Source of the DNA: an uncultured Bacilli bacterium | Lineage (GTDB): Bacteria > Bacillota_I > Bacilli_A > RF39 > UBA660 | Reading direction: 5' to 3' | Length of the DNA: 64,000 nucleotides | Assembly: GCA_963931065.1 (NCBI GenBank) | Contig: OZ006970.1 | Span: 934,903-998,902, forward strand | In this document: positions 60,522 to 64,000 of the stretch, piece after piece | How positions within the stretch are numbered: position 1 is the first letter of the stretch | Layout: each line of letters begins with the position of its first letter | Position numbers and translations under genes: made by a program | Notes under the pieces: generated by a model | The model's database searches: none | Told to the model about the DNA's origin: nothing | The model's input: the letters and a program-made list of their open reading frames with translations, nothing else

Positions 60522-60797
60522 TATTATGAAAAGTGAAAAAGAAGAGTTAATGAAATTGAGATATTTATATAAATTAAAACAAAATAAAAACTTAGGACTT
60601 ATTAATAATGATATTGACTTTAAGAATAAATATTTTAAAGATTTAGAAGAATTTATCAGAAAATATATAGGGATTAAATAGAAATATTTAATTCTTTTTA
60701 ATATAATAGGAAACTTATACGAAAAAGTCGAAAAAATGTATTGACAAACATATTTTTTATAAGGTACACTTAAGTTACCGAAGGGAGGGTTCGTTCT

Positions 60798-61919
60798 ATG
60801 AAAATATATAAAGCTTATAAATATAGATTATATCCAACAGAAGAACAAAAGATATTAATACATAAAACCTTTGGATGTAGTCGTTTTGTATATAACCATT
60901 ATTTAGATTATGAGAAGAAAAACGGTGTAAAAAAAGCATATGATTTAATTAAAGATTTAAAAGAACTAGAAAAAGAATATGAATATCTTAAAGAAGTAGA
61001 TTCATGTGCTTTAAGATGTGCTGTATTTGATTTAGAAGATGCATTTAATAACTTCTATGCCAAAAGAAGTAACTACCCAAACTTTAAAAGTAAATTTGCA
61101 AGACAATCTTATAGAACTAACTGTATAAGAAGTACTTATAAAGGAAAAGAATATAGTAATATAGAGTTAAATCTATTAACAAGAAATATAAAATTACCTA
61201 AACTAGGAAAAGTAAAGATAAGAGGATATAGAAATAAAAAGACTATAGATGGAAGAATAATTAATGCCACTATTTCAAAAGAAACAACTAATAAATATTA
61301 TGTAAGTGTGTTAGTAGAAGAAGAACTATTAGTAGAAAAAGTAATACCTGCAAGTATTGTAGGAATAGATTTAGGTATAAAAGATTTAGTAATAACTAGT
61401 GATGGTATTAAATATGAAAATGATAAAATACTAATGAAATATGAAAAGAGATTAAAGAGATTACAAAGAAAATTATCAAGACAAGTTAAAGGAAGTAATA
61501 ATTATTTAAAGACAAAGGAGAAAATAGCAAGAGTACATACTAAAATAAAGAATTATAGAAAACATTATTTAAACAAGATTGCAAATGAAATAGTAGATGA
61601 ACATGATATAATAGTAACAGAAGACCTTAAAGTAAAAGATATGTTTAAAGGAAAAGTAAAAGCATTTAATAAAACTCTATCAGATGCAAGCTTTAGTAAA
61701 TTATGTTCTCTAATAGAATGGAAGAGCAAGTTGAAGGGAAAGTTTTATTATAAGATAAATACATATTATCCTAGTAGTCAGATATGCTCGTGTTGTGGTT
61801 ATAGGAATAGAAGTTTAAAAGATTTAAGTATAAGAGAATATGATTGTCCATGCTGTGGCTCACATAATGATAGAGATATAAATGCTAGTTTAAACATATT
61901 ATTTGGTGCGACTGGGTAG
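60798..61919 (+). CDS. tnpB: IS200/IS605-family TnpB (OrfB) RNA-guided endonuclease, solo (no tnpA), 3′ end interrupted by a group II intron
   Basis: 'MKIYKAYKYRLYPTEEQ' N-terminus, RuvC-like motifs, C-terminal zinc finger 'CSCCGY...CPCCG', 'DRDINASLNIL'. Confidence 0.85.
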   Translation: MKIYKAYKYRLYPTEEQKILIHKTFGCSRFVYNHYLDYEKKNGVKKAYDLIKDLKELEKEYEYLKEVDSCALRCAVFDLEDAFNNFYAKRSNYPNFKSKFARQSYRTNCIRSTYKGKEYSNIELNLLTRNIKLPKLGKVKIRGYRNKKTIDGRIINATISKETTNKYYVSVLVEEELLVEKVIPASIVGIDLGIKDLVITSDGIKYENDKILMKYEKRLKRLQRKLSRQVKGSNNYLKTKEKIARVHTKIKNYRKHYLNKIANEIVDEHDIIVTEDLKVKDMFKGKVKAFNKTLSDASFSKLCSLIEWKSKLKGKFYYKINTYYPSSQICSCCGYRNRSLKDLSIREYDCPCCGSHNDRDINASLNILFGATG

Positions 61920-63818
61920 GTCGTATAATTTAGCAGGTGGAAATCCTGCCTAGTAAGGTAAACCCACACCACTAGTAACGAGTCTTGGAGCGAAACTGGT
62001 AACAGTTAGTTTAAGCGTAGACAGTTAGGTACTAGGGTTAGTATTGAGCCTCGAAATATGTAAAATCAGAGTGCAGATGTAGTCGAATATGCAGAATGCA
62101 ATATTTAATATCGCGATATCGGGGATGTAGTATTAAAACTCTGCGGGGTCTAAGACCTAATCATGGTACACAATGATTATACGATGACCAGTGAGAACCT
62201 ATTTCTTCCTTTAAGTCCAAATGGCAATGAGTCTATGGTAAAGCAAGAGAGCGAAAGGTATGATATATACAAGTCCTAAAAAGACAAGATATATCAGAAG
62301 AGAAATAGGTAGTCAGATGAACTCATAGTACTGATGATACCATATCAATAAATATGGAGGAAGGAAGGGGTTCAATTAATATAGGTCTTGTTAGAAGAAA
62401 CATTATCGCTATACAAGGAGGGATTAAATAATGACAACTAAAATAGCAAGAATAAATCAGATAGCAAAAGAAAGACCTAAAGAGGTATTTACTTCTATTT
62501 ATCATTTAATAAACAAAGAACTACTAAGAGAATGCTTTGATGAATTAGATGGCAATAAAGCAACTGGGCTTGATAAAGTTACTAAAGATGAATATTTTCA
62601 TAATTTAGATGAAAACCTAGATAATTTAGTAGAAAAGCTAAAGAATAAAGCTTATAGACCAAGTCCAGCAAGAAGAGTAAATATACCTAAGGCAAATGGG
62701 AAACTAAGAAGTCTTGCAATTGCCAACTTTGAAGACAAGATAGTACAACTAGCAGTAAAGAAGCTTGTGGAAGCAATATACGAACCTAAGTTTACTAATA
62801 ATATGTTTGGTTTTAGACCAAATAGAGGTTGCCATGATGCTCTTAAATATCTAAACTATTGTATAGAAAAGCAACCTACAAACTATATACTAGATGCAGA
62901 TATTGAGGGTTTCTTTGATAACATTGACCATGATAAGTTAATGTTAGGTTTAGAAATGCATATTAAAGATAGAAATCTATTAAGATTAATTAAAAGGTTT
63001 CTGAAAGCAGGTATAATGGAAAACGGAACATATATAAAAGGAGAACTAGGTACACCACAAGGTTCAATATTAAGTCCAGTATTAGCCAATATCTATATGT
63101 ATTATGTACTTATGCTATGGTTTGAAAAAGAAATAAAACCTAAGTATAAAGGTTTTATTGAAATAATCAACTATGCAGATGACATGGTTGTATGTTTTCA
63201 AAATAAATCAACTGCCGAAGAAGTGTATAAACAAATGGAAGATAGGCTTAAAGAGTGTGGCTTAAAATTTGCAAAAGATAAAACTAGACTCATTGAATTT
63301 GGAAGATTTGCAAGTGAAAATAGGAAAAGAAAAGGTTTAGGTAAACCTGAAACATTTGACTTTCTAGGTTTTACTCACTACTGTAGTAAAAGCAGAGATA
63401 AGAAACACTTTAGAGTAAAACGTAAAACATCTAAGAAGAAGTATGCTAAGAAACTACAGGAGTACAATACTTGGGCTAAGAATAATAGAGGTAAAACATT
63501 AAAAGAAATAATGGAAACTACAAAAAGAAAACTACTAGGACATTATAATTACTTTGGTATAACCGATAATAGCCGGGCACTAGTGAAGTACACTTATGAG
63601 GTCATTAGGATTTTATTTAAATGGCTAAACAGAAGGAGTCAAAGGGAAAGTTATACATGGGAAGAATTCCGTCAGATGGTGAACACTTTCCAATTTCCTA
63701 AGCCTAAAATTAAGGTAAATATATATGCTATGTGATGAATTATATTACTAAAAGCCGTATGCGGAAAAGCCGCACGTACGGATTTGTGAGGGCTATATAG
63801 AGTAATCTATATTTCTAC
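61908..63818 (+). mobile_element. Bacterial group II intron (about 1.9 kb), En-less RT/maturase type
   Basis: 5′ GTGCGAC at 61908; domain IV ORF; domain V AAGCCGTATGCGGAAAAGCCGCACGTACGG at 63754–63787; domain VI-like hairpin ending ...TTCTAC about 63818. Confidence 0.7.
62431..63735 (+). CDS. Group II intron reverse transcriptase/maturase
   Basis: RT domains 0–7 ('ANGKLRSLAIANFEDKIVQ', 'ILDADIEGFFDNIDH', 'YADDMVV') and X/maturase domain; no HNH endonuclease domain. Confidence 0.9.
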   Translation: MTTKIARINQIAKERPKEVFTSIYHLINKELLRECFDELDGNKATGLDKVTKDEYFHNLDENLDNLVEKLKNKAYRPSPARRVNIPKANGKLRSLAIANFEDKIVQLAVKKLVEAIYEPKFTNNMFGFRPNRGCHDALKYLNYCIEKQPTNYILDADIEGFFDNIDHDKLMLGLEMHIKDRNLLRLIKRFLKAGIMENGTYIKGELGTPQGSILSPVLANIYMYYVLMLWFEKEIKPKYKGFIEIINYADDMVVCFQNKSTAEEVYKQMEDRLKECGLKFAKDKTRLIEFGRFASENRKRKGLGKPETFDFLGFTHYCSKSRDKKHFRVKRKTSKKKYAKKLQEYNTWAKNNRGKTLKEIMETTKRKLLGHYNYFGITDNSRALVKYTYEVIRILFKWLNRRSQRESYTWEEFRQMVNTFQFPKPKIKVNIYAM

Positions 63819-64000
63819 TCGATAAGGATTAAAGATACACTATAATTTGCAAAGCTTAGTTTAGATTATGTTTTAGATAAAATAACAATTAACTAATAAC
63901 AAATTAGTACGGTGGCGACCATCGGAATTTAAGCCTACGTGAGAATAAGGGTTACTTTATCTATGAAGTAGGAATCCTTGAAGGTAACGACAAGGTAAAA

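What the first reader, a model, noticed from the sequence alone, without database searches (positions are those of the whole stretch)
61908..63818. Intact group II intron inserted into the last codons of a solo IS605-family tnpB, at its ωRNA end
The intron 5′ GTGCGAC begins 12 nt before the tnpB stop codon; the TAG lies inside the intron. It has a full RT/maturase ORF (434 aa, no En domain) and a recognisable domain V near 63754–63787, so it looks functional.

The 3′ end of tnpB encodes the start of the ωRNA/right-end element that guides TnpB. An intron here interrupts both the TnpB C-terminus and the guide-RNA precursor unless spliced. This would be a nested selfish-element arrangement.

The whole element sits immediately after spoIIGA–sigE, where sigG is normally expected.
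Basis: partly seen in the sequence, partly recalled or inferred. Interest (0 to 1): 0.62.

Follow-up and report, generated by a model that had tools for sequence, protein, structure and literature searches.

The report
Group II intron inside a tnpB gene
A working-looking, self-splicing mobile intron (group II) sits 13 codons before the end of a TnpB transposon gene in a small gut bacterium; it is real and recently mobile, but it is an ordinary case of a mobile intron using a multi-copy insertion sequence as its landing site, and it lies outside the guide-RNA scaffold.

Summary
An intact 1,918-nt group II intron occupies window 61906-63823, not 61908-63818. It lies in sense orientation in the codon for residue 370 of a 382-aa TnpB.

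Intron-free copies of the same IS (98-99% identical) read exactly as the join 61905|63824. The ribozyme domains, the EBS1/EBS2-IBS pairings and the En-less RT/maturase are all supported.

The intron is 99.1-99.7% identical in tnpB hosts that are only 82-85% identical to each other. It also occurs at an unrelated site. Its 88-95% relatives in other species are not in tnpB. So it spread by retrohoming into a short conserved site of a multi-copy IS; it is not a built-in part of the IS.

The "ωRNA end" claim is only partly right. The conserved, covarying ωRNA scaffold starts at 63906, 82 nt downstream of the intron, beyond the tnpB stop and a variable linker. sigG is not just beyond the window.

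Precedents exist: RmInt1 in ISRm2011-2, and Thermosynechococcus introns in the IS200-family element ISEL1. This is a new member of a known kind, of modest interest.

The parts
60691..60797 (+). Left end of the tnpB-only IS, with a promoter-like site and the tnpB ribosome-binding site. Identity with the second copy in the same genome starts at 60691. All copies share sequence from AATAGGAAAC at 60705. The promoter-like site is TTGACA 60741-60746, an 18-nt spacer, then TACACT 60765-60770.
   Evidence: Copy-to-copy comparison; promoter scan (L002 4311-4340 = window 60741-60770).
60798..61905 (+). tnpB exon 1: codons 1-369 plus the first base of codon 370. The unspliced frame reads on to TAG at 61917-61919, giving a 373-aa product that ends ...NILFGATG.
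   Evidence: ORF list; Pfam HTH_OrfB_IS605, OrfB_IS605 and Cas12f1-like_TNB; NCBIfam NF040570 at 331.8 bits, cut-off 100.
61894..61905 (+). Intron homing site in the 5' exon: IBS2 ACATAT (61894-61899) and IBS1 TATTTG (61900-61905).
   Evidence: These pair with EBS2 and EBS1. The pairings covary across intron relatives that have different exons. The intron-free copies L012 and L014 in the same genome differ in IBS1.
61906..63823 (+). Complete group II intron, 1,918 nt, from 5' GUGCGAC to CUACUCGAU 3', in sense orientation within tnpB.
   Evidence: Rfam hits; exact empty-site alleles L015, L016 and L017; copies 99-100% identical in at least 10 contigs.
61906..62430 (+). Ribozyme domains I-III and the base of domain IV. 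EBS2 AUAUGU is at 62056-62061 and EBS1 CGAAUA at 62084-62089.
   Evidence: RF02005 at 146.9 bits. RNAalifold on 14 relatives gave 122 pairs, 62 with compensatory changes. EBS-IBS covariation.
62431..63735 (+). Intron-encoded RT/maturase, 434 aa, in domain IV. It has the YADD motif and no En domain. GGAGGG lies 8 nt upstream of the ATG.
   Evidence: RVT_1 E 9e-41, GIIM weak; TIGR04416 at 353.7 bits, cut-off 300; PDB matches to LtrA, GsI-IIC RT and TeI4h RT.
63750..63823 (+). Domain V (about 63752-63784) and domain VI, with a bulged A 7 nt from the 3' splice site.
   Evidence: RF00029 at 48.4 bits, gathering score 40, full-length match.
63824..63864 (+). tnpB exon 2: completes codon 370 and encodes ...EGLKIHYNLQSLV, with the stop TAG at 63862-63864.
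   Evidence: The spliced translation matches the C-termini of 382-aa uninterrupted homologues at 98-99% identity.
63865..63905 (+). Variable AT-rich linker between the tnpB stop and the ωRNA scaffold. Its length and sequence are not conserved among relatives.
   Evidence: Alignments of the 3' regions.
63906..64000 (+). ωRNA-like scaffold at the IS right end. It is cut by the window edge; the full scaffold is 63906-64027 (L002 7476-7597) and ends ...TTATTTGTTC(T).
   Evidence: Conserved down to TnpB relatives of about 50% identity. RNAalifold gave 28 pairs, 17 with compensatory changes. The IS end is defined by four copies in one genome.

Best explanation
A mobile, En-less bacterial group II intron has retrohomed into a 12-13-nt site (ACATAT-TATTTG|A). 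It has a IIB-like RNA, belongs to the same Rfam D1-D4 subfamily as an RmInt1-like Sinorhizobium intron, and is probably class D-like. The site happens to lie in the conserved ...NILFEGL... coding region near the 3' end of a multi-copy, tnpB-only IS200/IS605-family element.

Proposed sequence of events:
1. Transcription from the tnpB promoter produces a precursor RNA.
2. The intron-encoded RT/maturase helps the ribozyme splice out. This restores the full 382-aa TnpB reading frame and the contiguous tnpB-ωRNA transcript.
3. The excised lariat-RT particle reverse-splices into other DNA copies of the site, recognised by EBS1/EBS2 pairing, and is copied into DNA. Having no endonuclease, it most likely uses the single-stranded lagging-strand template at replication forks.

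The IS supplies many identical landing sites and a promoter. It can also carry the intron passively when the IS itself is copied.

The intron does not interrupt the ωRNA scaffold. Unspliced mRNA still encodes a TnpB lacking only its last 13 residues, so the cost to the IS is probably small.

Shown here: the boundaries, the structure, the pairing, presence/absence polymorphism, and recent spread among diverged hosts. Inferred: splicing in vivo, the replication-fork mechanism, and the effect on TnpB/ωRNA output.
For: - Identity and intactness: Rfam D1-D4 and DV/DVI hits; 62 of 122 D1-D4 pairs with compensatory changes in 14 relatives; the RT passes TIGR04416.
- Exact boundaries: intron-free alleles L015, L016 and L017 read as window 61905|63824. 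Uninterrupted 382-aa TnpB homologues at 98-99% identity end ...NILFEGLKIHYNLQSLV.
- Target recognition: EBS1 and EBS2 pair with the 5' exon and covary with it across relatives. Cognate EBS1 pairing averages 5.6 bp against 2.9 bp for non-cognate combinations.
- Occupancy within one genome: the 1.52-Mb genome has two IS copies with the perfect site, both occupied. Two copies with altered IBS1 (AATGGTTG, AATGTTTG) are both empty.
- Recent horizontal spread by homing: the intron is 99.1-99.7% identical in tnpB hosts only 82-85% identical at the nucleotide level (L004, L007, L022). One copy is at an unrelated site with the same IBS (L006).
- No obligate link to tnpB: the 88-95% identical relatives in other species (L018-L021) lie in non-tnpB contexts.
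- ωRNA scaffold defined at 63906-64027 by covariation.
- Strand: the + strand has GC skew +0.24 and carries nearly all genes. Every IS copy examined is co-oriented with positive skew, so the target strand is the lagging-strand template. This is the preference reported for the En-less RmInt1 (PMC8914252 abstract).
- Class hint: an S. meliloti pSymA intron whose EBS1 loop is complementary to the RmInt1 IBS1 hits the same RF02005 model (137 bits). Its RT is 42% identical to this one.
Against: - There are no RNA data, so splicing and mobility are inferred from sequence only.
- The two intron-bearing copies in this genome are 100% identical in the intron and 99.8% in tnpB. Co-transposition or gene conversion of the whole composite therefore cannot be excluded for that pair.
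- The allele that shares L001's right junction without the intron (L015/L016) has a different left flank and comes from short metagenome contigs.
- Class assignment rests on an Rfam subfamily and 42% RT identity, not on a phylogeny.
- GC skew partly reflects the composition of coding strands.
- The true 5' end of the ωRNA is unknown. A non-conserved 5' extension reaching the insertion site is not excluded.
Confidence: 0.85

Rival explanations
1. The IS and the intron form one composite element, a group II counterpart of an IStron. It spreads mainly as a unit, by TnpA-in-trans transposition or by TnpB/ωRNA-driven copying into empty sites, with the intron as an integral module.
For: Two copies in the same genome (the window and L001) are identical in the intron and 99.8% identical in tnpB over the whole 3.3 kb. 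L001's tnpB is closer to the window copy (99.8%) than to the intron-free allele at the same right junction (98.6%), which would fit whole-element copying or gene conversion.
Against: Near-identical introns sit in tnpB genes that are only 82-85% identical. Intron-free copies with a perfect site are common. The same intron occupies a non-tnpB site (L006), and relatives in other species are never in tnpB. The intron is internal to the IS, so splicing does not remove the IS from host transcripts, which is the defining IStron property.
Confidence: 0.1
2. The intron acts as a brake or regulator of the IS. Inefficient splicing would lower full-length TnpB and ωRNA output, giving an antagonism like that between IStron introns and ωRNAs, or like RmInt1 limiting ISRm2011-2.
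For: The intron lies between the tnpB promoter and the ωRNA, and it introduces a premature stop. RmInt1 is proposed to limit its host IS in this way (PMC4238363). An IStron-ωRNA conflict is documented for group I introns (PMC10690162).
Against: The insertion is 82 nt upstream of the conserved scaffold. The read-through protein keeps the DRD motif and both CxxC pairs and loses only a tail that varies in length among homologues. Nothing in the sequence shows reduced splicing fidelity.
Confidence: 0.15
3. The intron is a dead relic or an assembly artefact with no present activity.
For: All data come from metagenome assemblies. One host tnpB (L022) appears frameshifted, and one contig (L005) has chimeric flanks.
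Against: The same junctions recur in independent assemblies, including a circular 1.52-Mb long contig. The ORF is intact and 100% conserved at protein level on 19 contigs. All ribozyme elements are present, and EBS matches IBS.
Confidence: 0.03

Closest known systems
RmInt1 of Sinorhizobium meliloti in insertion sequence ISRm2011-2 (bacterial class D / IIB3, En-less)
   Same: Both are En-less RT/maturase introns that home by EBS1/EBS2 pairing into a conserved site inside the coding region of a multi-copy IS. Both spread among IS copies with occasional ectopic sites, and both place a premature stop in the unspliced IS gene (PMC1802570, PMC4238363). An RmInt1-like pSymA intron hits the same Rfam D1-D4 model RF02005, and its RT is 42% identical to this one.
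   Different: The host IS here is a tnpB-only IS200/IS605-family element (RNA-guided nuclease plus ωRNA), not an IS630 DDE transposase. The insertion is 13 codons from the stop, so the truncated product is nearly complete. The host is a 26% GC gut Bacilli MAG. Class membership has not been proven by phylogeny.
[quoted passage not shown]
   Same: Group II introns that proliferate by inserting at a conserved site of an IS200-family insertion element. The authors proposed this as a general strategy for intron proliferation (PMC2882425).
   Different: It is a different intron lineage, and those introns are mobilised by RTs supplied by other introns. The position relative to tnpB and ωRNA is not described in the text I read. 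The host is a thermophilic cyanobacterium.
IStrons (group I intron fused to IS200/IS605-type elements, e.g. CdISt1; intron versus ωRNA conflict)
   Same: A self-splicing intron is physically associated with a TnpB/ωRNA element in low-GC Firmicutes, which raises the possibility of interplay between splicing and guide-RNA production (PMC4227781, PMC10690162).
   Different: The ribozyme here is group II, not group I. It is nested inside tnpB rather than forming the 5' end of the element, so splicing removes only the intron and not the whole IS. The 3' splice site does not overlap the ωRNA scaffold. The intron is separable from the IS: empty sites and non-tnpB copies both exist.

Membership tests
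Mobile bacterial group II intron | Conserved 5' GUGYG and 3' AY boundaries, with precise excision restoring the host sequence | tested here: met
   GUGCG starts at 61906 and the intron ends ...GAU at 63823. The intron-free alleles L015, L016 and L017 equal 61905|63824.
Mobile bacterial group II intron | Six-domain ribozyme: D1-D4 architecture, domain V, and domain VI with a bulged A | tested here: met
   RF02005 at 146.9 bits (gathering score 49) and RF00029 at 48.4 bits (gathering score 40). 62 of 122 predicted D1-D4 pairs have compensatory changes.
Mobile bacterial group II intron | Intron-encoded RT/maturase in domain IV | tested here: met
   434-aa ORF; RVT_1 E 9e-41; TIGR04416 at 353.7 bits (cut-off 300); YADD motif present; GIIM just below cut-off at 21.5 against 23.
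Mobile bacterial group II intron | EBS1/EBS2 in domain I pair with IBS1/IBS2 of the 5' exon | tested here: met
   CGAAUA (62084-62089) pairs with UAUUUG, and AUAUGU (62056-62061) pairs with ACAUAU. The pairings covary with the exons in relatives.
Mobile bacterial group II intron | Splicing and retrohoming activity in vivo | not testable with these tools
   Indirect only: copies at least 99% identical in diverged tnpB hosts and at an ectopic site.
Group IIC (class C) introns | No EBS2; insertion just downstream of a terminator or attC stem-loop | tested here: not met
   An EBS2-IBS2 pairing is present and covaries. The insertion is inside an ORF with no upstream hairpin.
Bacterial class D / IIB3 (RmInt1-like) | RT clusters with class D IEPs; IIB3 RNA features; no D/En domain | tested here: inconclusive
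   The En domain is absent. An RmInt1-like S. meliloti intron hits the same Rfam D1-D4 subfamily, and its RT is 42% identical. No reference phylogeny was available.
IS200/IS605-family tnpB-only element (IS1341-type) with ωRNA | TnpB with an N-terminal HTH, a RuvC-like OrfB_IS605 domain and a zinc-ribbon TNB domain; no tnpA inside the element | tested here: met
   Pfam and NCBIfam hits. Only tnpB, plus the intron, lies between the ends defined by four copies.
IS200/IS605-family tnpB-only element (IS1341-type) with ωRNA | Structured guide-RNA scaffold abutting the right end | tested here: met
   122-nt conserved region at 63906-64027, with 17 of 28 pairs showing compensatory changes. No Rfam family matches it.
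IS200/IS605-family tnpB-only element (IS1341-type) with ωRNA | Insertion 3' of a short target/TAM without target-site duplication | tested here: inconclusive
   All copies follow a T-run plus ATAT/GTAT/ATAC. No empty chromosomal site was recovered to confirm this.
IStron | Group I ribozyme at the 5' end of the IS, so that splicing removes the whole element from host transcripts | tested here: not met
   The ribozyme is group II and lies inside tnpB. Splicing removes only 61906-63823.

The most novel reading that the evidence does not exclude
The intron and the TnpB element may form a three-layer selfish partnership. The intron would use the IS both as a multi-copy homing site and as a vehicle. 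In this reading, TnpB/ωRNA-triggered breaks at empty sites would copy the IS together with its intron. Both the IS and the En-less intron would exploit the same single-stranded lagging-strand template. Splicing efficiency would in turn set the dose of full-length TnpB and of mRNA-derived ωRNA. That would be a group II counterpart of the IStron intron-guide RNA interplay.
Probability: 0.12. Interest if true: 0.6.

Novelty: new member of a known kind. Interest (0 to 1): 0.3.

Why it matters
The locus is a clean, well-bounded natural example of a group II intron colonising a TnpB/ωRNA element. Occupied, empty and IBS-variant sites occur in the same genome and across related samples.

It could serve as a small test system for two questions. 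The first is how En-less introns choose targets. The second is whether an intron in the tnpB-ωRNA transcription unit affects production of the RNA-guided nuclease.

For annotation, it explains why tnpB is called as a truncated 373-aa ORF here. It also gives the true 382-aa product.

It does not reveal a new mechanism. Introns that home into insertion sequences, including an IS200-family element, are already described.

Tried and rejected
1. Known ωRNA or IS605-associated RNA families in Rfam. Nothing matched the right end, even on the full-length copy. The weak RAGATH-18 match inside the RT ORF (26 bits against a gathering score of 44.9) is taken as chance.
2. sigG. tblastn with SigE found only sigE itself in the window and in 5.7 kb downstream. 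The downstream genes are fur, an Fe-hydrogenase and rubrerythrin.
3. Whether the intron lineage is dedicated to tnpB. tblastn of TnpB against 80 GTDB loci carrying related RTs found tnpB next to the intron only in the same species (L022). Rejected.
4. IIA-type δ-δ' pairing. The nucleotide 5' of EBS1 is always U, while the first 3'-exon base varies (A, T or C) among relatives (my reading). There is no covariation, so a IIB-type EBS3 elsewhere is more likely. It was not located.
5. Class IIC. Rejected, because EBS2 is present and there is no upstream hairpin.
6. Class assignment from PDB RT matches. LtrA, the IIC RTs and TeI4h all score similarly, so this was uninformative.
7. An independent ωRNA promoter. 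Only non-conserved hexamer matches were found, one spanning the 3' splice junction. Not pursued.
8. Literature. Searches for a group II intron in tnpB or an ωRNA context found nothing specific. One further query failed on syntax.
Full report
**What is there.** The last 3.3 kb of the window is one insertion sequence carrying one gene, tnpB, which is split by a group II intron. The sequence is 26% GC.

Rfam finds a full-length match to the group II D1-D4 model RF02005 at 61940-62158 (146.9 bits, gathering score 49). It also finds a full-length domain V/VI match (RF00029) at 63750-63823 (48.4 bits, gathering score 40). There are no other intron copies in the window.

Between these matches lies a 434-aa ORF (62431-63735). 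It has an RVT_1 domain (E 9e-41), a weak maturase (GIIM) match and a YADD motif, and no endonuclease domain. It passes the NCBIfam equivalog TIGR04416 for group II RT/maturases at 353.7 bits (cut-off 300).

The upstream ORF (60798-61919 as read through) has the three TnpB domains and passes NF040570.

**Exact boundaries.** GTGCGAC starts at 61906. The domain VI match ends ...CUACUCGAU at 63823.

Joining 61905 to 63824 keeps the frame and gives a 382-aa protein ending ...NILFEGLKIHYNLQSLV. A protein search with this spliced product returned many uninterrupted 382-aa TnpBs at 98-99% identity with the same C-terminus.

The DNA of three of these copies (L015, L016, L017) reads ...AAACATATTATTTG|AAGGATTAAAG..., base for base the predicted exon junction. 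The intron is therefore 61906-63823 (1,918 nt).

**The ribozyme is under structural selection and recognises its site by base pairing.** I aligned the 5' 525 nt of this intron with 13 relatives of 70-98% identity. The consensus fold has domain I, II, III and IV helices. Of 122 predicted pairs, 62 show compensatory changes.

Two domain I loops pair with the 5' exon:
- CGAAUA (62084-62089) pairs with IBS1 UAUUUG (61900-61905).
- AUAUGU (62056-62061) pairs with IBS2 ACAUAU (61894-61899).

In relatives inserted at other sites, these loops change so as to match their own exons. Cognate EBS1 pairing averages 5.6 bp, against 2.9 bp for non-cognate loop-exon combinations. Several relatives have cognate EBS2 pairings of 6-8 bp at the same exon position.

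Use of EBS2 and insertion inside an ORF exclude class IIC. The base 5' of EBS1 does not covary with the first 3'-exon base, which argues for a IIB-type rather than a IIA-type arrangement.

A Sinorhizobium meliloti pSymA intron has an EBS1 loop complementary to the published RmInt1 IBS1 (GAUGAGA; PMC4238363). It hits the same Rfam model (137 bits), and its RT is 42% identical over the full length. I therefore call the intron class D/IIB3-like, tentatively.

**The host element.** The exact RT and TnpB proteins are encoded on a 1,519,355-bp contig (ENA ERZ21564551). The GTDB species representative carrying the same intron is labelled an uncultured Bacilli MAG.

That genome holds at least four copies of the IS. 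Their alignment defines the ends. The left end lies at or just before AATAGGAAAC (60705; identity with one copy starts at 60691). The right end is ...TTATTTGTTC(T), 27 nt past the window end. No tnpA lies inside, so this is a tnpB-only IS200/IS605-family element.

The 122 nt before the right end (63906-64027) are conserved down to TnpB relatives of about 50% identity. They fold into four helices, with 17 of 28 pairs showing compensatory changes. This is the ωRNA scaffold.

Between the tnpB stop (63862-64) and the scaffold lies an AT-rich linker whose length and sequence vary among relatives. The intron's 3' splice site is therefore 82 nt upstream of the scaffold and inside the ORF. It is not in the guide RNA element.

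**How the intron got there.** In the same genome, the two IS copies with the perfect site (the window copy and L001) are both occupied. The two copies whose IBS1 differs (L012 ...AATGGTTG, L014 ...AATGTTTG) are both empty.

Across samples, the intron is 99.1-99.7% identical in tnpB genes that are only 82-85% identical at the nucleotide level (L004, L007, L022). One 99.3% copy sits at an unrelated site that shares the IBS sequence (L006...AACATAATATTTG|T).

An intron-free IS shares L001's right-hand junction and 105 nt of flank (L015/L016). Perfect but empty sites also exist in other strains (L017).

The nearest relatives in other species (88-95% identical, L018-L021) are not in tnpB.

Together this shows recent retrohoming into a short conserved site of a multi-copy IS. 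The IS and the intron are not an obligate composite. Passive co-copying with the IS remains possible for the two near-identical copies in this genome.

**Likely mechanism and consequences.**
- A promoter-like site (TTGACA, 18-nt spacer, TACACT, 60741-60770) precedes tnpB. The intron and its RT would be expressed from it.
- Unspliced mRNA stops at 61917-19 and gives a 373-aa TnpB. This product keeps the conserved DRD motif and both CxxC pairs, read from the translation. It loses only a tail that already varies in length among homologues.
- Splicing restores the full protein and the tnpB-ωRNA transcript.
- The + strand has GC skew +0.24 and carries almost all genes. Every IS copy examined is co-oriented with positive skew. 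The strand into which the intron reverse-splices is therefore the lagging-strand template.
- That is the substrate reported for the En-less RmInt1 (PMC8914252 abstract). From my own knowledge, not checked here, IS200/IS605 elements also favour this strand.

These last steps are inference.

**Context claims.** sigG is not just beyond the window. The next genes are fur, an Fe-hydrogenase and rubrerythrin. No SigE paralogue is detectable in the window or in 5.7 kb downstream.

**Comparison with what is known.** Group II introns that home into insertion sequences are classic.
- RmInt1 lives in the transposase gene of ISRm2011-2 and spreads among its copies (PMC1802570, PMC4238363).
- Thermosynechococcus F4 introns sit at a conserved site of ISEL1, an IS200-family element. 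The authors named insertion into other mobile elements as a proliferation strategy (PMC2882425).
- IStrons link group I introns to TnpB/ωRNA elements with a documented splice-site/ωRNA conflict (PMC10690162). Here the ribozyme is group II, is nested inside the IS, is separable from it, and does not overlap the scaffold.

My literature searches found no description of a group II intron within tnpB in the ωRNA era. The specific host is therefore new, but the kind is not.

**Verdict.** This is a new member of a known kind, of modest interest (0.3).

Noticed in passing
L005 1-2983 (ENA ERZ16268097 scaffold_31485): An intron variant (98.2% identical) has EBS1 and EBS2 matching a non-tnpB 5' exon (...CAGATAAATTTTG|), yet its 3' exon is a tnpB tail plus ωRNA. 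The spliced frame fuses an unrelated ORF to EGLKLHYNLQSLV*. This is either recombination between two intron copies or an assembly chimera.
   Followed up: partly
L006 1-2298: The same intron (99.3% identical) lies at an ectopic non-tnpB site, AAAACATAATATTTG|TAAATTGGTCC..., just upstream of a small hairpin. IBS1 and IBS2 are kept, but the first 3'-exon base is T instead of A.
   Followed up: partly
L113 1381-1482 and 1600-1701: A distant relative (about 50% TnpB identity) carries two tandem copies of the ωRNA-like scaffold after a single tnpB.
   Followed up: no
L001 1-4256 and L015/L016: The second IS+intron copy in the genome lies downstream of three tandem Phage_integrase genes and a 436-aa ORF. 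The intron-free contigs L015 and L016 share its right junction but not its left flank. Their tnpB is 98.6% identical to L001's, whereas L001 is 99.8% identical to the window copy. This hints at gene conversion or an IS-mediated rearrangement.
   Followed up: partly
L022 2363-3476: In the GTDB species representative, the tnpB that hosts a 99.1% identical intron aligns in three tblastn pieces (apparent frameshifts). The intron may persist in a decaying IS copy.
   Followed up: no
window 60677-60704 and the left flanks of L001, L012, L014, L015, L017: Every IS copy is preceded by a T-run followed by ATAT, GTAT or ATAC. This is probably the target/TAM of this TnpB element. No empty chromosomal site was recovered to confirm it.
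   Followed up: partly
window 63819-63846: A promoter-like pair (TCGATA, 16-nt spacer, TATAAT) spans the 3' splice junction, with a perfect -10 inside the last tnpB codons (CAC TAT AAT). The -10 is not conserved in relatives, so it is probably chance.
   Followed up: partly
window 63215-63304: A weak RAGATH-18 match (26.3 bits, gathering score 44.9) lies inside the RT ORF. It is taken as a chance hit.
   Followed up: no
window 60526-60681: A 51-aa ORF with no Pfam match lies between sigE and the IS left end. It is called as a gene in the source assembly.
   Followed up: no
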